DNA of 15,593 bases from the NCBI GenBank assembly GCA_030704615.1, contig JAKLZA010000335.1, forward strand, positions 1 to 15,593. Direction: 5' to 3'. The position numbers and the translations under genes were made by a program. This DNA is from Takakia lepidozioides (Eukaryota > Plantae > Bryophyta). The notes below the pieces were generated by a model. That model did not search any database, was not told the DNA's origin, and worked only from the letters and a program-made list of their open reading frames with translations. Numbering within the stretch: position 1 is the stretch's first letter; each line of letters opens with the position of its first letter. Shown piece by piece: positions 1-15,593 of this stretch.

Positions 1-59
1 GTGAGCCTTCGTCTGTCGCTATACTGAACCTCGCGCTTACCAACTTCGTGCGGTGTTCG

Positions 60-1464
60 ATGGCTCCGAATTCCTACGCTATAGTTTGCTGTCCTGCGCA
101 ACTTGGGAGAGCCTGGATCCCAAACGAGGGAGGACTTTGCAGAGTGACCAAAACTTACCTTTGTTCTAAATTCAAGCTCAAACCGGGCACAGTTTATTTG
201 GAAGAAGAAAGGAAGGATGTTCCTGGACAGGTTGACGAGACCATTGTCGTGCTAGGTAACGACGGAGGTTGCGGAATCGAATGGCACGTACCCCCATCAG
301 ACACCATCCTGTACCGAGCTGTGGGAATGCCCATTCCCTTTCCGAATCAGTTGCTGCCCACACCATCCACAAAGGAGTCCGGAAACCGACAGGCGGCCAC
401 TGCCAACAGAGAGGTATGCAACGATAATCATTCCCGACCTGGACCGTCAAGACCCTCCATAGCTTCTCGTGTGGACGTATTCGACATTTCCGACGATGAA
501 GATGAGTGCATTGAGGTCCCCATGTCCTCCACACGGTCGTTCAAATCCGACATGGACGTCTCTGCAGGTGCTACGCATGTACTCTCGAGCATAACTCCAA
601 CCCCGGTCCATTGTGCAGCTCCTACGGCAACATCACCTCGATGGTTCTCGCTCCGAGCTGGCTGCTCTCGACTATGCCAAATTTCCGGTCAGGAAGGTAA
701 CGTATCTACCTCCCGAAGTCGATGGCAATGTCATCTTCGAGTTTCCACCTGTCACTTCCTCAAACAAAGCCTCAGGGATGTTAACAGACATGGATCGAAA
801 GCATGACGGACACCCCTGGTGTGTGACGAAGACCAGTAGCACGAAAATTGCTGATGGTGTTCGTGTACGATACGTCCTCTGTGCGGGGAAGCTGAGGTGC
901 CTGAATCCCGCCTGCTTCCACTTTCTTTCCAAAGGAGGGCGGAGAAACGAGACGGATTGGACTAGCACAACGCATCATCCATTCATTGTCTCCAGCCAAG
1001 CTCCTGCGGGTACTTTCAAGTGCGCACATTGCAAAGAACCACCGACGTGCATGTCCATGTGCAGAGCCAAGCAATATTACGTTATCCATTTGCTCCCGGA
1101 CTTGACTAGAGCTTGCATACACGTTGGGGTCCACTGCCACCCCTTGGCGAGAGGCAACATGCGTGAGGCTGTGCAGGAAGCACACGACATCATAAAAGAG
1201 GAGGTGAAATTGAGCCCCAGAGCCAAACCAAAGCAGATTCAGCTGAAGGCAGCCCACAAGAATGCTCTTGGCAAAATCATGTCTGAAGATGGTTCAGACC
1301 GAGTGCCCTTGAACGAAGAGGAGATGCTTGACCTGTTGGAGTCGGTCTCGCACGTTTGTAGTCCGAATGTGTGGAATCACATCGTATCTTGCAAGCAGGA
1401 GTTCGGCCGGGGGTCGGACATGCACTCAATCCTGGAGGTGAAACGAATGACTGGATATGACTAC
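60..1464 (+). pseudogene. MULE/Mutator-like transposase, copy A: N-terminal part only (N-terminal domain + GCM-like Zn domain), one frameshift near 600-612, interrupted at 1464 by an LTR retrotransposon
   Basis: ORFs 48..806 (ATG at 60) and 613..1488 align collinearly with the gene at 13730-15593, which continues into a D..D..CxxH MULE core. The pattern DGHPW...CAGKLRCLNPAC...CAHC...CMSMC...HVGVHCHP resembles the WRKY/GCM1 fold. Homology stops exactly after GGATATGACTAC (1464): copy B continues ATTCATGG, copy A continues TGTAGTG. Confidence 0.8.
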
Positions 1465-2935
1465 TGTAGTGTGAATGCAGGGGAGTGACATTACATTTTG
1501 TCTTACCGTTAAGACCCTGCATCACTACAACGGGAGTGCCCGTTGTACAACTGCAGGAGGGATATATCCCTGCATACAGGTAATTTCATGGGCATACTGT
1601 GCTTATGTTTTGCCAGGATAAAAATGGCTAAGTCATGACCATGCGTATTTTCATCCGTAGGATGCACGTTTTCATCCCAGGTGTTTAACCTAGAAACGCG
1701 GGTTGAGGAAAACGAAGAGGAAGATGACGGGCAACTCTTAGCAGTTGCTGCGAGTAGTGGGGTTGTCAGGGCCGTCTGTTTGTGGGAGGTTGTACCTACG
1801 CTATGGGACTCTGCTTGGTATTCTGTGTAAGGGAAAGCGGTGCCGCTTCTCTCGTAGTGATGATCAATTCCTGGAGTAGGAGCATGTAAGAAGAGCGGCG
1901 CACCACCGCTGTCGCCATTGCCTTGAAGAAAACAGTTATGGGCAGATGAGCAAGCAAGGAAAACGGCCAGCTGCCGGAAGCACAAGGAAGTGAGTTGTGG
2001 GCACAATCAATGGAGGGGATGAGGCATGTGAAGTGCTGGCTGGATGGCAACTCAGGTTATCTATAATCAAAGCTTATAGCTGCTTTTGTGTCATCTTACT
2101 ATAGGGCCATATCAATTCTTAGGGAAGAATTGCACGCATAGAAGGATAGAGTATTTAGTTGGCAAGCCACAGGATGTTCCATAGGATGAAGAGGAGCCAT
2201 CATGGCATGATAAATACTGGAATCAAGACAAGGAGGATAGGTTGAAGTGGCTGCTGACAGGCGATGGTGAGGTGCCATCTTGGCAGGCAGATCCACCACT
2301 TCGCTGGAGGATAAAACAGATAAGTTCGTAGACTGTGGGCTTCGGTTTTCGGGGGAGTGGTGACTTAGAAATCGTTTTGGTGTGGATTTAGGACTGGCTC
2401 TATGTAGAGAAGAAGGAGGTAGAGATATGTGATGGAGGAAAAGGTTTTGGAAATGGAATGGAGACTCTGAAACTTCAAACCAGGATAGGGAAAGGATGGA
2501 TGCACCTGATGTTATAGTGTCAGTAGGAGAAATGAGTGGTGGAGAGACTGCTTGTCACTGAATCAGAATGGTCACTGTTTATCTTCATTCTTGTTCTTTG
2601 TTTCAGTGTTATGAACCTGCACACAATGCTGCCCTGGGTATTGATACACTGGAACCAATGTAGGCCTAGCTTGGCTGATTGAAAACACCAGTGAGGGTTA
2701 GTTAGAACTGTTGAAAACAGAGAAAGGATAATGTGGAAGGGGAGGCAACACCGGCACTGATTTGTTTTTCTTTTGGAACTAGTTTCCAGCATGGTCTCAG
2801 GGTATGAACAACTGAGGTTCATAGTTGAAGGGAAAAGAGGGCTGTTGGGGTATTTGGTTGAAACCTATAGAAAGGTTGAGAGCTGTTTGGGCAATGGCTT
2901 CTTTTGGAAAAAGGTAGTGTGAAGGGCTGGTCATT

Positions 2936-3655: not shown

Positions 3656-3667
3656 TGGTATCAGAGC
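3656..3667 (+). other. Primer-binding site complementary to the 3' end of initiator tRNA-Met
   Basis: Exact TGGTATCAGAGC, the canonical plant tRNA-iMet PBS. Confidence 0.92.
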
Positions 3668-4035: not shown

Positions 4036-4107
4036 GGGTGTTGCAGAAAAATGAGAATCAGAATTAGGTGTTAAAACCAGTTTGAACTCAGACTAGAGAG
4101 TAGAAGA

Positions 4108-4827
4108 ATGACCAGTCCAACTAGCATAGATGTGCCTTATCATGGTAGGAATAGTGAAGATGTGAATGACTGGCTGGAAAGGATTCAGATGGAGGCAGAT
4201 GTCAGAGATTTAAAGGAGGATAAAACCTTCAAGGTAGCAAGGCTCAACCTGAGAGCCAAGGCTGATGAATGGTACCGTAAACAAAACCCTAGACCAGGCA
4301 ACTGGGAAGATTTCAGGGTAGCCATATCAGCCAAGTTTGGTGTCATTGACTTGGCAGAAATCAGGCTGAGGATGGATACCATCAAACAGGAAAATAGACA
4401 AAGGGTTCAGACATACTTTGATAGGTTGAACCGGTTGTTTATAAGAAGTGGGGCGTCTGATTTGGAACAGAGGCGTAGATTTGCAGCAGGTTTGAGACCT
4501 GAAATAGCAAGAGTAATGCTGGGCAGGCGCTTCTCTGATGTAGAGGAAGCACTTGAGACAGCCATTGAGATTGAGAGGGGCCTGGGAAAGTTGGGGGAAA
4601 TACCTCTAGAGCCATTGGAAGGAGATGATACAGATGAGTCAGTTGTGTTTGTCAACCCTGTGGACAGAAGACTTGATCAGCTAAACACTACCCTACAGAA
4701 GTACTTTGATAGGGGACCAGTCATAGGAGAAAGCTCTGGATCTAGAACACCTCCTCGTGTTCGCCTTTGTAACGTTTGTCATAAAGAAGGTCACATAGCT
4801 ACATATTGTGGGGCTGCTATTTCATGA
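4108..4827 (+). CDS. gag: Retrotransposon Gag (capsid-like region + CCHC zinc knuckle), truncated by an insertion at ~4810; the last few codons and the stop come from the inserted element
   Basis: YHGRNSEDVNDWLERI...LRAKADEWY...WEDFRVAISAKF...IKQENRQRVQTYFDRL...FAAGLRPEI are typical Ty3/gypsy gag features; CNVCHKEGHIATYC is a CX2CX4HX4C knuckle. Confidence 0.9.
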   Translation: MTSPTSIDVPYHGRNSEDVNDWLERIQMEADVRDLKEDKTFKVARLNLRAKADEWYRKQNPRPGNWEDFRVAISAKFGVIDLAEIRLRMDTIKQENRQRVQTYFDRLNRLFIRSGASDLEQRRRFAAGLRPEIARVMLGRRFSDVEEALETAIEIERGLGKLGEIPLEPLEGDDTDESVVFVNPVDRRLDQLNTTLQKYFDRGPVIGESSGSRTPPRVRLCNVCHKEGHIATYCGAAIS

Positions 4828-4930
4828 GCGGCATGAGCATGAGCGGCATGAGCATGAGCGGAAAAAAAAAAAGCATGAGCAGACCATTGTGAGTCCACGG
4901 AAATAGGGTTAGGAGGCACGGAAATAGGGT
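4810..4930. repeat. Putative transposon terminus / subterminal repeats: 6x CATGAG, A11 tract, 2x CACGGAAATAGGGT
   Basis: CATGAG at 4823, 4832, 4838, 4847, 4853 and 4874; CACGGAAATAGGGT at 4896 and 4917; CTATTTC at 4817 is the reverse complement of GAAATAG. Confidence 0.65.
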
Positions 4931-4975
4931 CATGTGAAGTTGGAATGTGGCACCAGTGGACTTAAAATGCAACAT

Positions 4976-5044: not shown

Positions 5045-8000
5045 CTACTCTCCTACACCCTCCGAGGAACTTGCCCCACCTTCTTCCTCATCCCCCTCAT
5101 CCCCCTCATCCTCCGAGCTCTGTGATGCATCAGTTCCACTATGCCTCTCAAAAATCCCGTCCTCTCCTTGGGGGACTGTCCACCTCACCTCCTGGGAATC
5201 TTCTGCGTCTTCTCCCCCACTTTCCTCAGCAGAATCCAACACAAATCTACGAGCCCGACGGGCTCTAATAGCTGCTGCCTCCTCCCTCATCTTCATTTTC
5301 TTGAGGCTTGCCTCGTCTAAAATCTGCTGTACACGACTACGTTCGGAACACCTCCTAATGGACACCGAAGCAAGCCGGGCAGCATAAGTAGGCAGGATGT
5401 ACTCCCTTTCTGGACTAGGCATGAAATCTCCCCTGGCAAAAAAAGGCACGTTCCTCCTGCCCATGAACTCCGGTGTAGACGTCCCTCCGGCAGTACTTGG
5501 CATCCTACAGTAAGAACAAATCCACTTGAAGAATGTCAATACCAGCACAACCAAAAAGGGTTTTCAATGAAATAAGAGAGCGGAGGGAGGTGCCTCACAA
5601 AATCTGGAGGCAACTTACAATGCCACCACTCACTCGTAAACCGGGGGCTCCTCGGCCTCGATCCCAACTTCCTCCCCCTGCTCCTTCTCGGATTTTTCCT
5701 CATCCTCCGAGGATGCCTCTTCCTCTTTCGGCAGACGTTCAGCCGCTGCAAGTTCCGAGTTGTGGAGGGCAGTATCTGGCTCGAAGGCGAACACATGCCT
5801 GTCGGACAACGTCCCTGCCCACATTGAAGCACCTGAGGAACAAAGCGGGCGGTTAATAGCTTGCGGCATGCAATTGCAATGGGGCCAGGGGACAAACTGA
5901 GCACGTGAAGGCTTACCCGTGCCGCATGTGAGGTCCAGAATCCGCCCTTGGACATCCGAGCACGTCTCCATGAGGGTTTGGATGAAAGCAGGGCTTCGGG
6001 TCCGGCTGTACCGCCACGGTTTGCCTGTCTTTGTGTCCTTCGGCATACTAGAGTGGGGCACATAGTTGTAGAGGACATCGTAGGTTACAGGGTCCACAGC
6101 GGCATCAACAAGACGACCGTCGTTGCGGAATTTGAACGTAGACCCTCTCTTCACAAAGCAATATGCCTCAAACACCAATGTCTGCACATCCAACAAAGAA
6201 GGGATCAATTCCAGGGTCTACTTAACATACACCACAATATGAAGTGAATGCAATAGATTGATAACTTACACTTTGGCCCTCTGTTCGCAACCCCTGCGTA
6301 CTGATGCAGAACCATTTTCTGAGGAGGACCGGGGTGACACTTTTCGGTGTCCACCTTGCCACCGCATTCTCTGTGGTCTTCCCTCTCGTGGCAAGGACAA
6401 CCACACATCCACCGTCATCCAGAAGCATCCCCGCCAGCCCAAACCCGGCTTTCCAGTAGTCCTCAGTAAACCTGTTCCAGGTGGGCACACCATCCAGGCC
6501 CTCCAGCAGCTCCCCATCTGGAATGTCGAGGAGAATCATGTCGCAAGCTCTCTCCACCTCAACCCCCCCCCGAGTGCTCTTGCAATTCGTGCTCACAGCC
6601 GTGAAGAATTCCATCATGGCTTCAAAACCAGGGGTGTCTTTAGGCTCTGTACCGGCAGCCCTCTTCTTGGCTTTTCCCTTCTGCTCCGCCAGAGACTTGT
6701 TGTGTGCCACCTTCTTTGCCCTGGCAGCGAGAGCGTCAAGGAAGCTCTCATTGACGCATTGGATGATGGTTGGAGGTTCTAGCTTTGGCCTGTGCGTAAA
6801 CGTCACCGCCGAATACCGCCGTGTAGGCTCGCCCTCAAATGCCAACTTCTTGGCAGAGCCAGTCCCACTCCGAACTGACTTGGGAACCCGGACGACCGGT
6901 GACTGGGTAGGAGCAACAGCAGTCGCAGGACCTTGAACAAAATCGGCGTCGGAGTCACTCTCTTGGGTCCCCTCCTGCGCCTCCTCCGATGCCCCGATGG
7001 TTTTCTTCTTTTTGGGTGTTACTGCAGTCACCTGTTTCCTTGTCCTTTTCCTTTGACCTTTACTCTTCTCATGCAATTTCTCTTGAATTCCTGCCTGAGC
7101 AAGCTCTGCCGCTTTCCTGGAGTTCGCAAGCGCTTTTGCCTCTTTTGCACCCAACGGAGGCAGCGGAGCCCGGTTTCGTCGGAATTCAGCATCCAGCTTC
7201 AATTGAAACTCGGATGGGTCGAGCGAGCCGGGCGGAAGGTCCACATACCAAGGGCAATCACGCAAATGTTCCAGATGCCACTCCTTCACAATATCGTCAG
7301 TGTACATGGAGTCAGCCCCAGGGTTCCTCCATGCCAGGAAGAATGGTGGCTCGAAAGACAGATGACCTTTCTCCAAAAGCGAGAACTTACAGTACCTGCA
7401 TTCATGAAAAACCCAATGAGGTCCGAAAATGGCTAACTCCCTGAACGGCAATAGGGCCTACAACTGGAATATGGCGCCGAATTTCCACTTCAGGGCCACC
7501 CAGTGTAGGGACTTAGCCCGAAAATGGCTAAGTCCCTGGACGGCAATACGGCCTGGAACTGGAAAACGGCGCCGAATTTCCACTTCCGGGCCAGCCACCC
7601 TAGGGACTTACACAAAAAATGGCTAAGTCCCTGGACGGCAATAGGGCCTAGAACTGGAATACGGCGCCGAATTTCCAGTTCCGGGCCAGCCACCCTAGGG
7701 ACTTAGACCGAAAATGGCTAAGTCCCTGGACGGCAATAGGGCCTGGAACTGGAATATGGCGCCGAATTTCCACTTCAGGGCCAGCCAGTCTAGGGACTTG
7801 GCCCGAAAATGGCTAAGTCCCTGGACGGCAATAGGGCCTAGAACTGGAATACGGCGCCGAATTTCCAGTTCCGGGCCAGCCACCCTAGGGACTTAGACCT
7901 AAAATGGCTAAGTCCCTGGACGGCAATAGGGCCTGGAACTGGAATATGGCGCCGAATTTCCACTTCAGGGCCAGCCAGTCTAGGGACTTAGCCGGAAAAT

Positions 8001-11000
8001 GGCTAAGTCCCTGGACGGCAATAGGGCCTAGAACTGGAATATGGCGCCGAATTTCCAGTTCCGGGCCAGCCACCCTAGGGACTTAGACCGAAAATGGCTA
8101 AGTCCCTGGACGGCAATAGGGCCTGGAACTGGAATATGGCGCCGAATTTCCACTTCATGGCCAGCCAGTCTAGGGACTTAGCCCGAAAATGGCTAAGTCC
8201 CTGGACGGCAATAGGGCCTGGAACTGGAAAATGGCGCCGAATTTCCAGTTCCGGGCCAGCCAGTCTAGGGACTTTGCCATTTTCGGAGCCCTGACTGGAA
8301 ATTCGGCGCCATTTTCCCTAACACCACTTAGGCCTCTAACATCCTGAATGCCAGGACTTGAAAGAAAGGCAGCGCGTATGTACCTGTACAGAAGGCGCAT
8401 TGCTGCTTTGTCCGCGTTCGGCTGGTCGGTGAACTCGTGGCTCCGGCGAGCATCTGCTATCTCCCGAAAGAATAGGTTGGTTTTGTAGAGCAGAAAGTAC
8501 CTCGTCACATAGTCACGCAGGCTCTCTGCTGCAGAGATATCTCCATCTTGAACTGATGTGCTTGTGTGTCCAGCTGCTCTTGCGCATTCGTCGTCACCTG
8601 TGGAGATTGTCCATCAGATCGCTTTCCTCAAAAAATACAATGAATCAACCCCTACTAGAGTACAAGCCCCAAACGAAGCGTGGGAAGTACCTGAAACCAC
8701 CATGTCATGCGGTTCATCCACATGTCGAATGTGGGGTCAGAGAGTTTGTCCGGTTTGGGGAAGCTCCACATGTCCCTGGTACTTTGGGAACCATTCCAGA
8801 TTTGGAGCCACCGGGTCTGTCCAACCACCCAGCATATTCGTAAGCGCCAAACACCACAAAAAGGAGTTGTTGCCACCACAATTTGGTTAAGAATGTATCA
8901 CCTTTTCTGTTGCATCCACACAGGATGTGGCTAGACGATGGAGCTTCTCCAATGTCATCGTGGGCTTCAGAGCGCGAGAGTAGTGCTTTCCCACCTCCAC
9001 CAGAAAGTCGGCACCAAGGGCGGGATCAGCTATGGCCACGTACTTTACCATCCGCGACTTGTACTTTATGCGGGCCCTCACCTCCGCAGCTTTGACATAC
9101 GATTCGAGTTCCGGGAGGGTTGGATTCTTCTCCTCTGACTCCATGTAGAACCTCCGCGCATGTGCCAAATCCTGCTGTATTTCGTCTGTCGAAAAGCAGC
9201 ACATAAGATTAGAGATCCTGCTCAACACAATTTCTTCTATTGGGGGAGGAGAGACAAATTAGCTCAACAAAACTGCAGGAGCTTTACCCGAAATATGTAG
9301 TCCACCATGGCGTCGACGCTCAGCCTATACCAGGTTCTGTCTGCCTTTGCCTCCGACTTGCGCAGGAGGTCGGCACTGAGGGAATTGGCAAACTCTTCAC
9401 CCCCTGCCTCCCGACATCCTTCACTCGGAAGAGCATATGGGACAAGTTCGTGGCAATGAAGGCATTCTCAGTCACCCTGCAGTGCCACATTTCCATCAAA
9501 CAATACTGAAATGGGAATTTTCATCATATATGAGGATTCGCAATGAAATGACTTCCAAATTCAAAGTCCAAAAGCGAGAGGGGTTGTAGCTTACGAGTTG
9601 ATGTCGGCCATTGCAGCTTTGAGAAGACTGCGATCTTTGGGCCCCGCAACCTTCAGCACAACACAATCGACGGCGAAATGCCAATCGAGATCGTTGGGGT
9701 GGGCTTGGGCAATGTGCTCCATCCATGCCAGGAGGCGATGATTGCCGTCCCACACGTAGAACATCTTACCGGACATGTGCTGGAAAAGAGGATCACTAGC
9801 AATCGATCTCTCGAACTCCTCATTTCGCGTTTGCCAATGGGGACCCCATTTGTCCACCTCATCGGAAGTGTGGGCACGGGAAGCTCCGTGGTCGTTCTCA
9901 ATGGAAACGTAAAAGGCGGCAGACCCCATTCGATATCCATCCCGGAAAGAGAATTTCAGCTTGTCGATATCGCCTGGGAGGGCAGGTCTCACCACCTGCA
10001 ATGACACCAAGCGGCAAAGGGGAATTCGAAGCTTGGCCGGGTACACCATGCCCCCCAGCACCCTGCCAATGTTGCTGTGGGTTGCCTCCAACATCTTGGC
10101 AGCGGCCAACTTCATATCCGCCTCAGACATGACGTCTGCTGCAGAGGGGTTTCCGGCAGCCCACCAAGACCGCCAAATCCAGCCTGTATGCTCCGGGTTT
10201 GGGGCCTGGGGATGTCGGGAGAATGTCATCCTGGTCAGAAACATCCATGTCGTCCTCCTCAACAGGGTCAGCCACCTGCGAAACCACCTCCAGCACTCTC
10301 GTCGTCTCTACTGCCCTCTCCCTGGCTTCACCTCGAACTTGCACAATCGGTGCTCTTTCAGTGTTCTTTCCTCTCCTCCACTCTCCACCGTATGGGTAAT
10401 TGCGGGGGCTGCACTTGCCCGCGATGGTCTAACCGGTGTGCTACTGCCTCTCTGTGGTGTCTTGTAGGGATCCACCGTCTCTGTGTGTCCCTCGCTTACA
10501 TTGGCATCTGTCATTTGGGCACCCCGGCCTCTTCAGCTGCCTTTTGTCTTTCCTCCTTGCTAGCATTCTGTCTCGTCTGTTCTTTTGCCCTCTCTTTTGC
10601 CCTCTCACGGGCTTTCTGTTTCTTACTAGGGCTAGCAACAGGGGAGCCCTCCAGGACGACCACCTTTGATTGAGGCGAACTGACACCCTCGCGCGCACTG
10701 CTCACTCCCCCCTCCGCAGCCCGTGACTGCTCTCTCGCCGGGGGGATTGCATGTGCTTAGCTTTCTTCTTTTTCTTTGCGTGGGCGGGCCCTACTGCATG
10801 TGCATGAACAACCTCCATTGCCGGATCTGCTGTCCTCATGTCCTCACGCCCTTCACCTGCCATGCCGCCTGCACCAACCTCCCCAATGCCTACTCTATCG
10901 TAATCTCGTTGCAAGTCCTCCCGTCCACCAACAAAAGATTTAAGTTTGCCCTCTCGCCCCAAGTTGGGCGATTCAAACATGCGATGAGTTGGAGCTGTCG

Positions 11001-11743
11001 ATGATACCACCAGCGTGCCGGGCTCGTCGTCACTCTGTGATTGACAAAAATCGTGAACACCAACAGTGGTGCAAAAAGCAGCAGCGCAACCACCATAGCA
11101 GCAATCATGTAGCAAAAATGAAAACATAACAAGTTTAGGAAGTATGGAGAGCCATGCAACAACAATGAAAACAAATGCAACCATTGCCTAAGAATGACAT
11201 GCACAAGCAGCCTTCTCCAGAGCTGCCGGATTTGCACACGCATTGCAAACAATCTAAGGTTCAGTCAACTATCTAAAGTTCACTCATAAAGCAAAGCCAG
11301 GATGAAGATGCAGAAACAAAGCGAGGTAACGAAGCGAAAGCAAAAAAGAAATCGAACAAACCGAAAGTAGAAGTGGCTTGCCTGAGAGTACTCGGCTTCA
11401 GTTGGCGCAGGTTGTGAGCAAGACACTGGAATCTCCTGCTGGAGCTTCAGTTTGGCCATGCGAGAGATTGGCCGTCGTCCGTAGTACAGAGCTTTCAACT
11501 TCCGCCGCGGGTCTGGATCTGAGGTCTCTCTCAGGAGAGCCACGCCCTTCAGGCGGCATAAGTCCCAGCCAAAAAGATCTCCATTTTTGGGGTACATGCC
11601 TGGAATACCATGTTAAGCCAAGTATAGCATGAGATTTAGGGTACGTGTCCAGGAAGCCATGCGTCGCCAGCCCGAATAATAAGCGACGGCCGTCGACATT
11701 TATTGCCCAACTGCGCAATTAAATGTCGGATGAAGCCCTCCAT
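5045..11743 (-). CDS. Multi-exon gene, ~1550 aa: low-complexity N-terminus, ParB/Srx-like domain, helical and basic linker, beta-class N4C/N6A DNA methyltransferase-like domain, acidic tail. Several 1-nt frameshifts in the 5' half.
   Basis: Hand-built exons: 11743-11382, 11034-9595, 9476-9288, 9185-8902, 8816-8691, 8597-8384, 7395-6270, 6181-5917, 5832-5634, 5504-5045. Introns are GT-AG, with one putative GC-AG (11381-11035). Phases match at 9594/9477, 8901/8817, 8383/7396, 6269/6182, 5916/5833 and 5633/5505. Frame breaks are needed near 9395, 9287/9186, 8535 and at several places in 10150-11720. The first exon is the least certain. Confidence 0.72.
5760..6550 (-). other. Amino-(N4C/N6A) DNA methyltransferase-fold domain, beta motif order (IV...X-I-II), split by two introns
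   Basis: CDMILLDIPDG...W...AGMLLDDGGCVVVL corresponds to motifs IV-VI (cf. DLILTDPPY...LKPGG). RSPAFIQTLMETCSDVQGRILDLTCGTG corresponds to motifs X and I (cf. KP..L..LI...S..GD.VLDPFxGSG). Removing intron 5916-5833 joins this directly to ASMWAGTLSDRHVFAFEPD (motif II-like acidic residue). Confidence 0.8.
7422..8317. repeat. Intronic tandem array: 9 x 95-bp imperfectly palindromic units with a 190-bp A/B higher-order period, plus an inverted partial unit
   Basis: Units begin AAAATGGCTA at ~7426, 7521, 7616, 7711, 7806, 7901, 7996, 8091 and 8186; each has GGCTAAGTCCCT...AGGGACTTAG arms around GGCGCC. The array lies within intron 8383-7396. Confidence 0.95.
9595..10050 (-). other. ParB/Sulfiredoxin-like N-terminal domain
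   Basis: IPLCRL...VRP...DIDKLKFSF..GY...FYV...FYVWDGNHRLLAW matches the ParB/Srx signature hhhDGxHRhxA (DGNHR at 9735-9749), with an insert between the first strand and the signature. Confidence 0.8.
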
Positions 11744-11785
11744 GTCGGAAGAAAATAGACGAAACAGTCCCGGAATTTCCCTCAC

Positions 11786-12679
11786 GCAGGTAATTCGGAA
11801 GCGCGCGGATGGAAATCCGGCGCCGAATTTCCATCCGCGCAGGTAGGGCGGTTCGCAAATTTCCTTCAAGCAGGTAATTCGGATGCGCGCGGATGGAAAT
11901 CCGGCGCCGAATTTCCATCCGCGCAGGTAATTCGATTGCGCGCGGATGGAAATCCGGCGCCGAATTTCCATCCGCGTAGGATGGCGGTGCGGTGCGCCAA
12001 ATTTCCTTCAAGCAGGTAATTCGGATGCGCGCGGATGGAATCCGGCGCCGAATTTCCATCCGCCCAGGTAATTCGGATGCGCCCGGATGGAAATCCGGCG
12101 CCGAATTTCCATCCGCGCAGGTAGGGCGGTGCGCCAAATTTCCTTCAAGCAGGTAATTCGGATGCGCGCGGATGGAAATCCGGCGCCGAATTTCCATCCG
12201 CGCAGGTAATTCGGATGCGCCCGGATGGAAATCCGGCGCCGAATTTCCATCCGCGCAGGTAGGGCGGTGCGCCAAATTTCCTTCAAGCAGGTAATTCGGA
12301 TGCGCGCGGATGGAAATCCGGCGCCGAATTTCCATCCGCGCAGGTAGGGCGGTTCGCCAAATTTCCTTCAAGCAGGTAATTCGGATGCGCGCGGATGGAA
12401 ATCGGCGCCGAATTTCCATCCGCGCAGGTATTCGGATGCGCGCGGATGGAAATCCGGCGCCGATTTCCATCCGCGCAGGTAATCGGAATGCGCGCGGATG
12501 GAAATCCGGCGCCGAATTTCCATCCGCGTAGGATGGCGGTGCGCCAAATTTCCTTCAAGCAGGTAATTCGGATGGCGCGGATGGAAATCCGGCGCCGAAT
12601 TTCCATCCGCGCAGGTAGGGCGGTTCGCCAAATTTCCTTCAAGCAGGTAATTCGGCGCCGAATTTCCATCCTGCAGGTA
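11786..12679. repeat. Intergenic tandem array: 12 full copies (plus one half copy) of a ~38-bp near-perfect palindrome GCGCGGATGGAAATCCGGCGCCGAATTTCCATCCGCGC, in ~53-bp units interleaved with a ~32-bp unit
   Basis: Directly visible; the linkers CAGGTAATTCGGATG and CAGGTAGGGCGGTGCGCCAAATTTCCTTCAAG are themselves repeated. Confidence 0.95.
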
Positions 12680-12699
12680 CGTCGGATCGGTGCCATATG

Positions 12700-13445
12700 G
12701 ATATTGGAAATTCGGCGCCGAATCTCCATCCATCCGAGATTCCACTTACCTGCTGGATGGAAATTCGGCGCCGAATCTCCATCCGGGGGATGGTCTCTGT
12801 CGGAGAGGTGCCGCCTCTCCGCCGCTCTGTTGGATATTCGGTGCCGAATTTCCGTCCGGGGGTTGAAATATGACTGCCAGGTTCCGACCTCTCCCCCCTC
12901 CCCGACTTCATTGGAACGGCCCGAATTGAAAATTTGGCGCCGTTTTCTCATCTGTGGAGGTTTTATGTCGGCCAGTTTTCGCTTGACACGCCGACAACAC
13001 TTCCTTTGGGGGGGCCCGGATGGAAATTCGGCGCCGAATGGCGTCCAGGGGATGTTCTCTGTCGCACACTGGCCGGACTCTGTGCGCCCCAGGCGACTTC
13101 ATCCGGGCGTCCCCTGTTCGATATTCGTGCCGAATTTCCGTCCGGGGGGTTGAAATTTGACAGCCAACTGCAGGCCACTCCCCCTCCCCGACTGCATCCG
13201 AATCGCCCCGGATGGAAATTCGGCGGCGCCGTTTTTCCATCTGGGGATGTTTTTATGCCGTCCAGTTTTCGGCCTGACCCCCCGACACGACTCCCTTTGG
13301 GGGGACCGGATGGAAATTCGGCGCCGAATCTCATCCAGAAGATGTATCTGTCGCACACACTCCGGCCTCTGCGCCCGAGGCGACTTCATCCGGGCTTCCT
13401 CTGTTGGATGTTGGGTGCCGAATTTCCATTCGGGGGTAGTAATGT
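12700..13445. repeat. Diverged ~288-bp tandem repeat (~2.5 copies), each with about three degenerate GGAAATTCGGCGCCGAAT cores
   Basis: GTGCCGAATTTCC(G/A)T(C/T)CGGGGG blocks near 12840, 13127 and 13415; GGATGGAAATTCGGCGCCGAAT near 12756, 13018 and 13308. Confidence 0.8.
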
Positions 13446-13729: not shown

Positions 13730-15593
13730 ATGGCGGAAAACCCGAGCGCTACAGTGTACTGCCCTTCTCACGAGCATAGAGCTTCATTTCCGTGCAGAGG
13801 GGACACTGCGGTGTGATGGATGGAGAAATATCTGTGCGTTCGATACCACCTGAAACCGGGGTCGGTTTTTTGGAGGAGGAAAGGAAGGACTCAAACGGCC
13901 TTGTTGTCGAGAGTATTGTTGTGCTCCACGATGATTTCGGCGATGGCAGGGAATGGCGAGTTCCACCATCGGACAGCGTCATATACAGGGCTGTTGGGGA
14001 CTTCATTTGCCCGCCAATGCACCGTCTATCCTGGCGCCTTCCACGAAACAATCCGCGAATCAGGAAGTGGGTACCTCAAAGAGAGAGAAGTCCGCAACGA
14101 AGTAAATCCAGAGCCGAACCCATCCATGAAGAACCGAGAACCGGGTGGGTTGTTCACAACCTGTCCGACTCAGACGAGGTCATGGAAGTCACGAGGTCGT
14201 CATGGAGATCAGGCAAGTCCTCAATGGACGTCAGTGGAGGAGGGAGTCATATTCCCAGCACGAGCACCCGCAGTTCGATCTATCTATTCTAGAAATTCTG
14301 CGAGGCTTCCACCTGAGGGACACCGGTCGGAGCTGGCCGGGCTGGACTACAGCAAGTTCGCAATTAAATCGGTTACATGCCTTCCCGCCGACGTCGACGG
14401 TAATGTCTTCTTTGAGTTCCCTCCTCGGCGGACTACTCGAGGGCATCCGGGAATGTTGACAGATCTATGGATAGAAAACATGACGGTCATCCTGGTGCGT
14501 TACCAAAACCCACCAGCATGAAGATGCTTGATGGTGTGCGGGTGCGCTACGTGTTTGTGCGGGCGCGTTGCGGTGTTTCTCCCCAACTTGCTTCCACTTT
14601 AAATCCAGAGGTCACAGGAACGAGACCGATTGGACAGGCACAGCTCACCAACCATTCGAGCTCAGGAGAGAAGGTTCCGAACTCCACATTTAAGTGTGCG
14701 CATTGCAAAGAAACACCACACTGCATGTCTGTTTGTAATGCCAAGCAGTTCTATGTGTTGCACCGTTTCCCTGACCTCACCCGAGCTTGCATACACGTTG
14801 GTTCCCATTGTCACAAATTGGCGAGGGGGAACTCGCGGGAGGCTGCCCACGAAGCAGAGCAGCTCGTTCAGGAGGAGGTTAAGTTGAGACCGGGTGCCAA
14901 ACCAAACAGATACAGCTCCAAGCCGCCCATAAGATGGCATTGGCCAGAATTATGTCGGAAGACGGTCGGATAGAGTTCCTCTCGACGAGAAGGAAATGGA
15001 GGCATTGCTCGAGTTGGTGTCCCACGTATGTTCACCGAATGTCCGAAAACACATGTCTCTTGCAAACAGAGAAAATTGGCGTGGCTCGGATATGCACTCC
15101 ATCTGGAGGTGAAGCGACGATGTGGATATGACTACATTCATGGAAGTAGGTTTCCAGGACAAGGGACTGAGGCAGATCGTTGTTTCGTTTCAAAATGTCA
15201 CGTGTGTGGACCTGGCAGTGGCGTCGAAACTGGTCGACAGGATGACGAGTGGGAACTTGTCAAACAGTTGGGTCATGTTCGACATATCAAGCGAATTACA
15301 AATCACCAGTGGGTGACAATGGGTGCACATGTCTACGACACCAACTGCAGGATGCTAATGACAATTGCTATTGTGTGAGATGAAAGGAGAGGACACACAA
15401 ATCGGAGATGCTTCTTTGGCAGGGAATAAAACGAACAGATGGCCAAGGCGGGATTGCCCCCCTCCCAATTTCCGTGGTTTCATGGCGGACCACCGCACAA
15501 GCAAATGGGGCTGCCATCCGAAGGGTGTACGGGCAAGACCCCAATGTCCCATGGAAGGCAAGGAGAGATCTTGTGGGTCCACTTTCTGCAGAG
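13730..15593 (+). CDS. MULE/Mutator-like DDE transposase, copy B, with GCM-like Zn domain; heavily frameshifted in this sequence and running off the window
   Basis: ATG at 13730 (MAENPSATVYCP aligns with copy A MAPNSYAIVCCP). The stitched frames give a Zn domain (CAHC..CMSVC..HVGSHCH), then WVMFD (15269-15283, first Asp), NFRGFMAD (~15467-15490, second Asp) and ERSCG(F)H (CxxH, 15572-15582, needs one base added). D-D-CxxH is the Mutator-superfamily signature. Confidence 0.8.

What the first reader, a model, noticed from the sequence alone, without database searches (positions are those of the whole stretch)
6513..6545. The MTase catalytic motif IV reads DIPD instead of (D/N/S)PP(Y/F/W)
The motif I/II SAM-binding region is well kept, but the aromatic residue that stacks on the flipped base is Asp (GAT at 6518-6516, one substitution from TAT, Tyr). 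The domain could be a catalytically dead DNA/SAM-binding module or reader, could have altered chemistry, or the change could be specific to this copy. For comparison, the active eukaryotic beta-class N4C enzymes known from bdelloid rotifers have an SPPY motif.
Basis: partly seen in the sequence, partly recalled or inferred. Interest (0 to 1): 0.7.

Follow-up and report, generated by a model that had tools for sequence, protein, structure and literature searches.

The report
Family-wide pseudo-methyltransferase on plant transposons
The odd DIPD motif is neither a sequencing error nor a one-off mutation: an acidic residue there is the commonest form in an old family of methyltransferase-fold proteins of mosses, liverworts and ferns, carried on likely DNA transposons, which likely no longer methylate DNA and would instead bind the element's own palindromic repeats.

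Summary
DIPD is real (Asp = GAT, 6518-6516, minus strand) and is motif IV: a plant-only profile aligns it to the DPPY of CcrM (E 2.6e-11), and a relative's model folds like CcrM (Z 19.8). It is not private. No other letter reaches 1% over 6468-6552 in 400 laid contigs, and contigs of two other studies carry it. Among 39 family sequences (median identity 27%), position 4 is Asp 12, Glu 11, Phe 2, Tyr/Trp 0. The domain ends a spliced ParB/Srx-fold + helical + beta-class MTase-fold gene, with a full-length Ceratodon homologue. The gene lies head-to-head with a Mutator-like transposase, beside GGCGCC-centred palindrome arrays. Other pocket residues changed too: CcrM Thr191 aligns to Arg/Lys, Glu135 to Phe, and the motif I Phe is gone. 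Common variants among copies are mostly synonymous. Best reading (0.55): a selected pseudo-methyltransferase that helps the element recognise its own arrays. Rival (0.3): a rebuilt, still active site. ParB-MTase accessory genes are known from algal transposons; I found neither this land-plant family nor its motif in ten literature searches. Activity is untested, and this copy appears frameshifted upstream.

The parts
6516..6527 (-). Motif IV, D-I-P-D (CcrM D31-P32-P33-Y34 equivalent)
6474..6485 (-). PTWN; Trp invariant in the family (39 of 39), aligns to a Trp of CcrM (DDHWDQF)
6270..7396 (-). Exon: end of helical region, acidic/basic linker, MTase-fold motifs IV-VI
6182..6269 (-). GT-AG intron, 88 nt
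   Evidence: skipped by contig X8 record 25
5917..6181 (-). Exon: Phe at 6172-6170 (aligns to CcrM Glu135), WRYSRTRS at 6016-5993 (Arg at CcrM Thr191 and Lys193 positions), motif I DLTCGT
5833..5916 (-). GT-AG intron, 84 nt, splitting motif I
   Evidence: skipped by X8 record 25
5630..5832 (-). Last exon: end of motif I, motif II Glu (5782-5780), acidic tail, stop
7423..8278 (.). 9 x 95-bp tandem array, one GGCGCC-centred imperfect palindrome per unit, inside the predicted intron 8383-7397 of the same gene
   Evidence: intron inferred from GT-AG ends and alignment to P0005
8384..9476 (-). Middle exons (helical region conserved with P0005); apparent frameshifts near 9400 and 8533 in this copy
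   Evidence: a one-base insertion at 8533 in about half of the family depth
9593..10130 (-). Exon encoding ParB/Srx-fold domain with VWDGNHRL (start codon uncertain; frame open from 10307)
11773..13440 (.). Intergenic arrays of near-perfect 38-bp palindromes centred on GGCGCC (19 cores; 1 elsewhere outside the two arrays)
13780..15593 (+). Frameshifted Mutator-like transposase gene (GCM/FAR1-like zinc finger, then MFD, FMAD, CxxH-type motifs), head-to-head with the ParB-MTase gene, running off the window

Best explanation
DIPD is this family's standard replacement for DPPY in a beta-class methyltransferase-fold domain that is fused behind a ParB/Srx-fold domain on a high-copy, likely Mutator-like plant transposon; the domain likely no longer methylates DNA and would serve as a DNA-gripping module that helps the protein sit on the element's own palindromic arrays. 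Shown: motif, fold, fusion, splicing, head-to-head link to a transposase-like gene, arrays, family-wide acid at position 4. Inferred: (1) an ancient ParB-MTase gene of bacterial or phage type was captured before or early in land plants; (2) the base-stacking Tyr became Asp/Glu and the residue on the other face of the flipped base (CcrM Thr191) became Arg/Lys, so the two would pair across and close the base pocket; (3) the cofactor site eroded in part (motif I Phe lost, first Gly mostly Ser, CcrM His189 mostly Gly); (4) the fold is kept by selection as a scaffold, as with METTL14; (5) the ParB domain binds a nucleotide and loads the protein at the arrays, where it would counter host silencing or assist transposition, as VANC does for VANDAL elements.
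For: Position 4 in 39 sequences: D12, E11, H4, S4, K4, F2, T2, no Y or W; Pro at position 2 in 1 of 39. No other letter at 1% or more over 6468-6552 in 400 contigs of run X3; X10 record 12 (another study) has 0 differences over 6315-6539. In 15 sequences covering both sites, all 12 with an acid at position 4 have Arg/Lys at the Thr191 position, against 1 of 3 without (Fisher p 0.03, not corrected for kinship). Motif I Phe position: S16, T13, N6, F3, L3, I1 among the commonest; first Gly position S28, G9. Tyr34 and Thr191 sandwich the target adenine in CcrM (PMC6787082, passages). Tyr-to-Gly in DPPY inactivates the beta-class HP0593 enzyme (PMC3036652, passages). METTL14 has eroded EPPL and is the non-catalytic subunit (PMC7544214, passages). 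Selection: 12 of 17 common coding variants are synonymous against 23% expected, 5 of 5 in and next to the MTase domain. ParB domain is 36-50% identical to relatives against 25% for the motif IV exon versus P0005.
Against: The catalytic first residue is kept (D27, E5, N4 of 39), as are Pro3 (37 of 39), the PxWN Trp (39 of 39), the motif I Asp (43 of 49), the motif II Glu (28 of 32) and mostly Lys at the Lys193 position (37 of 53); a dead enzyme need not keep these. A conserved Phe (28 of 34) aligns to CcrM Glu135, next to Tyr34, and could supply the lost stacking face. A Ceratodon clade has Phe at position 4 (DTPF, DQPF). No coordinates were available, so the salt bridge rests on alignment only. 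The model is of P0052, not of this window's protein. No binding or activity data exist. Of the 20 low-share variants shown, 13 are non-synonymous, mostly in the acidic tail.
Confidence: 0.55

Rival explanations
1. The active site was rebuilt, not killed: the acid moved from the Glu135 position to the Tyr34 position, the aromatic moved the other way, and Arg replaced Thr191. The enzyme still transfers a methyl (or another SAM-derived group) to an amino group on the element's own DNA, shielding it from host 5mC silencing.
For: Asp1, Pro3, Trp, motif I Asp/last Gly, motif II Glu and the Lys193 position are kept across 27% median identity; the changes look reciprocal; non-Pro at position 2 is common in PF01555 proteins (DLPY in 115 of 117 hits examined; their activity is untested); algal ParB-MTase accessory proteins are predicted to be active (PMC12477816).
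Against: Position 4 also accepts K, H, S, T and position 1 accepts Q and Y, which is looser than a catalytic motif; motif I Phe and His189 are lost; loss of the aromatic inactivates tested enzymes (PMC3036652; the SPPY-to-APPA double change in PMC8885841).
Confidence: 0.3
2. The domain is a reader: it flips a modified base (for instance host 5mC in the CpG-rich palindromes) into a pocket lined by Asp/Glu and Arg and so senses the silencing state of the element.
For: Pocket residues are conserved in kind rather than random; array cores are CpG-rich GGCGCC palindromes.
Against: No direct evidence; reader pockets usually keep an aromatic face (own knowledge), which is what was lost.
Confidence: 0.12
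3. The Asp is a private mutation or base-call error in a decayed copy.
For: This copy appears frameshifted near 9400 and 8533 and its transposase is broken; contigs drop rare variants.
Against: No alternative letter at 1% in 400 contigs; same letters in contigs of two other studies; DIPD itself recurs in P0111, P0124, P0126 and D/E in 23 of 39.
Confidence: 0.02

Closest known systems
ParB-like + N4C/N6A methyltransferase accessory protein of Ectocarpus Sola1-1_Ec32 (PMC12477816; passages and a term search of 5 supplementary files seen)
   Same: Same two domains in one protein of similar size (1104 aa against 1147 aa for P0005), on the strand opposite to the transposase of a giant DNA transposon; proposed to bind its own element.
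   Different: Brown alga, Sola-1 transposase; predicted there to be an active methylase; its motif IV is not discussed in the passages seen and I could not compare sequences.
Plavaka accessory genes PAG2 (PF01555 + SET) and PAG3 (ParB + 2OG oxygenase) of red algae (bioRxiv 10.1101/2025.02.11.637652; section 8 and passages seen, supplements not seen)
   Same: PF01555 and ParB domains on giant DNA transposons, also on Chondrus Mutator elements; tandem arrays of inverted repeats beside the ParB gene.
   Different: The two domains are in separate proteins with other partners; no altered motif IV is reported in what I read.
CcrM and other beta-class amino-methyltransferases (PDB 6pbd; PMC6787082, PMC7544214, passages seen)
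   Same: Motif order IV to I, fold (Z 19.8, rmsd 3.8, 237 aligned), DDGA-type motif, PxWN Trp, motif II acid.
   Different: Tyr34 to Asp/Glu, Pro32 to hydrophobic, Thr191 to Arg/Lys, Glu135 to Phe, Lys118 to Asn/Gln/Ser, His189 to Gly/Tyr, motif I Phe lost (alignment-based).
METTL14 (eroded EPPL; PMC7544214 passages) and inactive DIRS1 MTase domains (PMC4738411 passages and section 8)
   Same: Amino-MTase fold kept with a broken motif IV; DIRS1 case is also transposon-borne.
   Different: METTL14 partners an active METTL3, and no active partner was found here; DIRS1 domains are PCIF1-type (group 2) on retroelements.
Eukaryotic 4mC writers: bdelloid N4CMT (SPPY; PMC8885841, PMC10406627 passages) and Marchantia MpDN4MT1 (TSPPY; bioRxiv 10.1101/2021.02.12.428880 passages)
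   Same: Beta-class fold of bacterial origin in a eukaryote (8s9m Z 19.1).
   Different: Canonical motif, proven activity, host genes, no ParB domain.
VANDAL/VANC anti-silencing system of Arabidopsis (PMC5735166, abstract seen)
   Same: Transposon accessory protein plus element-specific tandem repeats that differ between families.
   Different: VANC was not compared here; no homology is claimed and anti-silencing is untested for this element.

Membership tests
Beta-class amino-methyltransferase (PF01555) | Motif order IV, variable region, I | tested here: met
   Spliced reading and profile alignment to CcrM
Beta-class amino-methyltransferase (PF01555) | Permuted Rossmann fold | tested here: met
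   Model of relative P0052 (pLDDT 89.6): CcrM Foldseek E 1.4e-13; Z 19.8, rmsd 3.8, 237 aligned; the window's own spliced protein was not folded
Beta-class amino-methyltransferase (PF01555) | Catalytic motif IV (D/N/S)-P-P-(Y/F/W) | tested here: not met
   DIPD in the window; aromatic at position 4 in 2 of 39, Pro at position 2 in 1 of 39
Beta-class amino-methyltransferase (PF01555) | Motif I FxGxG | tested here: not met
   Window DLTCGTG lacks the Phe; family consensus DLSASTG
Beta-class amino-methyltransferase (PF01555) | Motif II acidic residue for the SAM ribose | tested here: met
   FAFEPD in the window; Glu in 28 of 32
Beta-class amino-methyltransferase (PF01555) | Pfam score above the curated cut-off | tested here: inconclusive
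   P0005 30.4 bits against 26.7; P0052, P0056, P0129, P0091 below cut-off; window exon pieces give no hit
Beta-class amino-methyltransferase (PF01555) | SAM-dependent methyl transfer to DNA | not testable with these tools
   Needs an assay
ParB/Sulfiredoxin superfamily | ParB/Srx fold | tested here: met
   Model of the window's own exon (pLDDT 79): Foldseek's top rows are all Srx/Noc/ParB (best E 4.3e-3); the 9 best of 48,161 chains are all ParB/Srx-fold, best KorB Z 6.7, rmsd 2.7, 91 aligned, then unrelated helices at Z 2.4 or less; Z is under 8, so support is moderate
ParB/Sulfiredoxin superfamily | Conserved DGxxR nucleotide-binding motif | tested here: met
   W-D-G-N and Arg invariant in 10 of 10 aligned; motif meaning from own knowledge; PHROGs ParB-like E 0.014
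ParB/Sulfiredoxin superfamily | CTP binding and loading at inverted repeats | not testable with these tools
   Needs an assay
Mutator-like (MULE) DNA transposon | WRKY/GCM-type zinc finger, DDE core with CxxH, SWIM | tested here: inconclusive
   Atlas first hits GCM/FAR1-like, score 0.93 but recognition 1922, weak; MFDH, FMAD, CxFH, NxxE and SWIM-like motifs read by eye in decayed loci (signature recalled); no matching Pfam family on 6 fragments
Mutator-like (MULE) DNA transposon | Terminal inverted repeats and 9-bp target duplication | not testable with these tools
   No genome held; one end lies beyond the window
Algal transposon ParB-MTase accessory proteins | ParB and MTase domains in one protein, opposite strand to transposase, inverted-repeat arrays nearby | tested here: met
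   Window layout; transposase-like hit in 10 of 80 loci (7 of 42 groups), upstream and on the opposite strand in all 8 whose coordinates were printed
Algal transposon ParB-MTase accessory proteins | Direct homology to the algal proteins | not tested
   Algal sequences were not among the named hits; not retrieved

The most novel reading that the evidence does not exclude
Land-plant transposons carry a bacterial-style ParB/parS self-recognition system in which a nucleotide-driven ParB clamp loads a methyltransferase-fold domain with a rebuilt Asp-x-Pro-Asp/Glu + Arg + Phe pocket onto the element's own palindromes, where it writes or reads a DNA mark by a chemistry that no described amino-methyltransferase uses.
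Probability: 0.18. Interest if true: 0.85.

Novelty: new variant of a known kind. Interest (0 to 1): 0.52.

Why it matters
Transposon accessory genes with ParB and N4C/N6A methylase domains are being proposed as self-marking epigenetic tools in algae, on domain labels alone. This family shows that in land plants the same architecture has been kept for a very long time with a motif that lacks the base-stacking aromatic. Either the methylase label is wrong and the protein is a sequence-specific binder, like VANC, or it is an amino-methyltransferase with a new active site. Both are testable with one protein and its own array DNA, and homologues exist in a tractable moss. The family is very abundant in this genome, so it may matter for how large plant DNA transposons escape silencing.

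Tried and rejected
Whole genome not held, so no element ends, copy number or true dN/dS. Pfam finds nothing on the window's MTase or ParB exon pieces. Word search with the motif IV exon against longer proteins found nothing. Runs X9 and X11 (other organisms) laid 0 contigs on the motif: no evidence either way. No listed holder is on record as RNA; X8 and X10 are guessed RNA, and only the intron-skipping contigs argue for transcripts. No relative of the ParB domain in GTDB genomes or IMG/VR by pattern scan: weak negatives. One search was dominated by non-plant DLPY proteins because alignment A2 held two non-plant rows (P0121, P0128); I rebuilt the profile without them (A3) and repeated the PDB search. 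Idea that the invariant PxWN Trp replaces the lost Tyr: rejected, since CcrM has a Trp at the aligned place as well as Tyr34, and a Trp lines the cofactor adenine in N4CMT (PMC10406627). The 80 metagenome loci are decayed, AT-rich relics (motif IV read as YVPS, DCPM, DYPN, NVPS, DVPS, DCLD, DIPS, DCPV; none aromatic, none with the acid except DCLD) and could not give dN/dS. The tree leaves deep nodes open and the window's place unresolved. A homodimer prediction was not obtained. Earlier-findings look-ups by place, sequence and words gave nothing on this motif.

Full report
Observation. The minus strand at 6545-6513 reads CDMILLDIPDG, with the last Asp as GAT at 6518-6516. The frame belongs to a spliced eukaryotic gene. 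Removing two GT-AG introns (6269-6182 and 5916-5833) gives one open frame through motif I (DLTCGTG) and motif II (FAFEPD) to a stop at 5630. Contig X8 record 25, from a run guessed to be RNA, skips exactly these two stretches.

Is it motif IV? A search with the upstream exon 9594-10130 returned 9 proteins, among them a 1147-aa Ceratodon purpureus protein, P0005, with PF01555 at 903-1119 above the curated cut-off. P0005 matches the window from 10037 down to 5696 on one strand, and its DTPF aligns to DIPD. A profile of 46 plant-type rows, without the two non-plant rows of the first alignment, matches CcrM over profile positions 25-238 at E 2.6e-11 and places the consensus DiPe on DPPY. An AlphaFold model of the domain of relative P0052 (DLPE; pLDDT 89.6, pTM 0.90) puts the motif at the end of strand E59-65; its best structural match is CcrM (Foldseek E 1.4e-13; Z 19.8, rmsd 3.8, 237 aligned), with M.BceJIV, M.MboIIA and bdelloid N4CMT tied within 1 Z. 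The window's own spliced protein was not folded.

Is it private? No. The element is very abundant: 36,432 and 16,054 contigs of runs X1 and X3 lie on 5600-10400. On 6468-6552, 400 contigs of X3 show no other letter at 1% of depth or more. X3 is the same sample as the possible source, and contigs drop rare variants. Independent support comes from X10 record 12 (0 differences over 6315-6539) and the spliced X8 contig, which has one unlisted difference in the 85 bases; a difference away from the ends would have been listed. X9 and X11 laid nothing.

The family. An HMMER search of 1.84 billion representatives with the P0005 domain gave 98 hits. Of these plus P0005, P0149, P0174 and the window (102 rows), 39 cover motif IV under my gap filter; median pairwise identity is 27%. 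Position 1 is D27, E5, N4, Y2, Q1; position 2 is Pro in 1; position 3 is Pro in 37; position 4 is D12, E11, H4, S4, K4, F2, T2, with no Tyr or Trp. DIPD itself recurs in P0111, P0124 and P0126. Named members come from Ceratodon (DAPE, DTPF), Riccia sorocarpa (DPPT) and Adiantum nelumboides (DLPT). In a tree of 45 rows the two Phe-bearing rows form a supported pair inside a group that also holds acid-bearing rows (88/93, not starred), so Phe is likely secondary; deep nodes are open and the window, Riccia and Adiantum rows sit on long branches.

The rest of the pocket. In CcrM the target adenine is stacked between Tyr34 and Thr191, bonded to Asp31, Pro32 and Lys193, with a Lys118-Glu135-Tyr34 network (PMC6787082, passages). 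Reading the printed alignment with an 8-residue offset, Thr191 falls on the family's Arg, Lys193 on Lys, His189 on Gly, Glu135 on Phe and Lys118 on Asn/Gln. Counts: Arg 29 of 46 at the Thr191 position, Phe 28 of 34 at the Glu135 position, Gln 18 and Asn 17 of 40 at the Lys118 position. Among 15 rows that cover both sites (P0113 dropped as intron read-through), all 12 with an acid at position 4 have Arg/Lys opposite, against 1 of 3 without; DTPF pairs with His (p 0.03, kinship not corrected). Motif I lacks its Phe, and the first Gly is mostly Ser; motif I Asp (43 of 49) and motif II Glu (28 of 32) are kept. These equivalences rest on sequence alignment; the Glu135 and Lys118 registers could be off by one.

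Selection. One search showed 40 of 266 variant rows. Twenty reach 5% in X3; I dropped 3 that fall in a frameshifted exon. Of the other 17, 12 are synonymous, and 5 of 5 in or next to the MTase domain, against 23% expected (P 5e-5; 0.003 if 35% is assumed). The 20 low-share rows, driven by divergent contigs and mostly in the acidic tail, are 7 synonymous and 13 not. This suggests a constrained gene but is not a dN/dS. This particular copy appears frameshifted near 9400 and 8533, by decay or assembly error.

Context. The N-terminal domain has an invariant WDGN..R motif and folds like ParB/Srx: the 9 best of 48,161 chains all belong to that superfamily, best Z 6.7. A transposase-like gene starts near 13780 on the other strand, head-to-head. 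A 9 x 95-bp array lies in a predicted intron (8383-7397) and palindrome arrays fill 11773-13440; both centre on GGCGCC (9 and 19 cores, 1 elsewhere). The best 80 of 105 confirmed metagenome loci were fetched with the ParB profile and collapse to 42 groups: 19 groups hold an MTase-profile hit and 7 a hit to the window's transposase-like protein, on the opposite strand upstream in the 8 loci whose coordinates were printed. Some carry their own, different palindromic arrays next to the ParB gene, e.g. L012 9116-9637 and L009 7464-8308; others show none. The transposase is called Mutator-like from a weak Atlas match to GCM/FAR1 proteins and from motifs that I recall; Pfam did not confirm it.

Mechanism. 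Most likely (0.55) the domain is a pseudo-methyltransferase. Loss of the aromatic inactivates a tested beta-class enzyme (PMC3036652), METTL14 shows that an eroded motif IV can persist as a scaffold (PMC7544214), and here both the base pocket and part of the cofactor site changed while the fold stayed under constraint. An acid and an Arg at the two faces of the base slot would pair and close it. The protein would load on its own arrays through the ParB domain; a phage precedent links ParB-like proteins to DNA-modifying enzymes (bioRxiv 10.1101/2025.08.14.668559, abstract), and VANC is the plant precedent for array-targeted accessory proteins (PMC5735166, abstract). Against this, Asp1, Pro3, the Trp, the motif II Glu and the Lys193 position are kept, and the Phe at the Glu135 position could replace Tyr34; a rebuilt active site gets 0.3 and a modified-base reader 0.12.

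Known versus new. ParB plus N4C/N6A methylase accessory genes are described on brown-algal Sola and red-algal Plavaka/Mutator elements (PMC12477816; bioRxiv 10.1101/2025.02.11.637652), citing Iyer et al. 2011, which I did not see. Ten library searches showed no paper on the land-plant family or a D-x-P-D/E motif; subscription papers, Repbase entries and bioRxiv supplements were out of reach and may describe them. The domain has the beta-class fold but fails the motif IV and motif I tests, so I do not file it as a canonical amino-methyltransferase. Verdict: real, family-wide, a new variant of a known kind; interest 0.52.

Noticed in passing
window 3-1485 (+): A second copy of the transposase-like gene, about 71% identical to the one at 13780+ over a 221-nt stretch, breaks off near 1485.
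   Followed up: partly
window 3656-3667 and 4075-4827 (+): TGGTATCAGAGC (tRNA-iMet primer site, recalled) followed by a gag ORF with zinc knuckle (Pfam Retrotrans_gag E 5e-7): an LTR retrotransposon remnant, cut off near 4823 where the ParB-MTase element seems to begin.
   Followed up: partly
window 4823-4935: Short CATGAGCGG repeats and a doubled CACGGAAATAGGGT; possible end of the DNA element.
   Followed up: no
window 5048-5497 (-): Small ORF (MPSTAGG...) just downstream of the MTase stop, basic then acidic; no Pfam hit and no hit in the 80 loci. Possible second accessory gene.
   Followed up: partly
window 10130-11264 (-): Further open frames upstream of the ParB exon, probably the low-complexity N-terminal exons of the same gene; start not determined.
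   Followed up: no
L012:9116-9637; L009:7464-8308; L006:12137-13082: Relatives carry arrays of unrelated sequence beside or inside the ParB-MTase gene (L012 palindrome centred on GCTAGC), suggesting that target and protein change together between families.
   Followed up: partly
P0149 and other single-exon hits: Intron read-through appears at the same two places as the window's introns (before the T..F strand and after motif I ASTG), so intron positions seem shared across distant members.
   Followed up: no
P0150-P0266: A large set of PF01555 proteins from assemblies has DLPY at motif IV (115 of 117), several with tandem YDPPLP repeats in the variable region.
   Followed up: no
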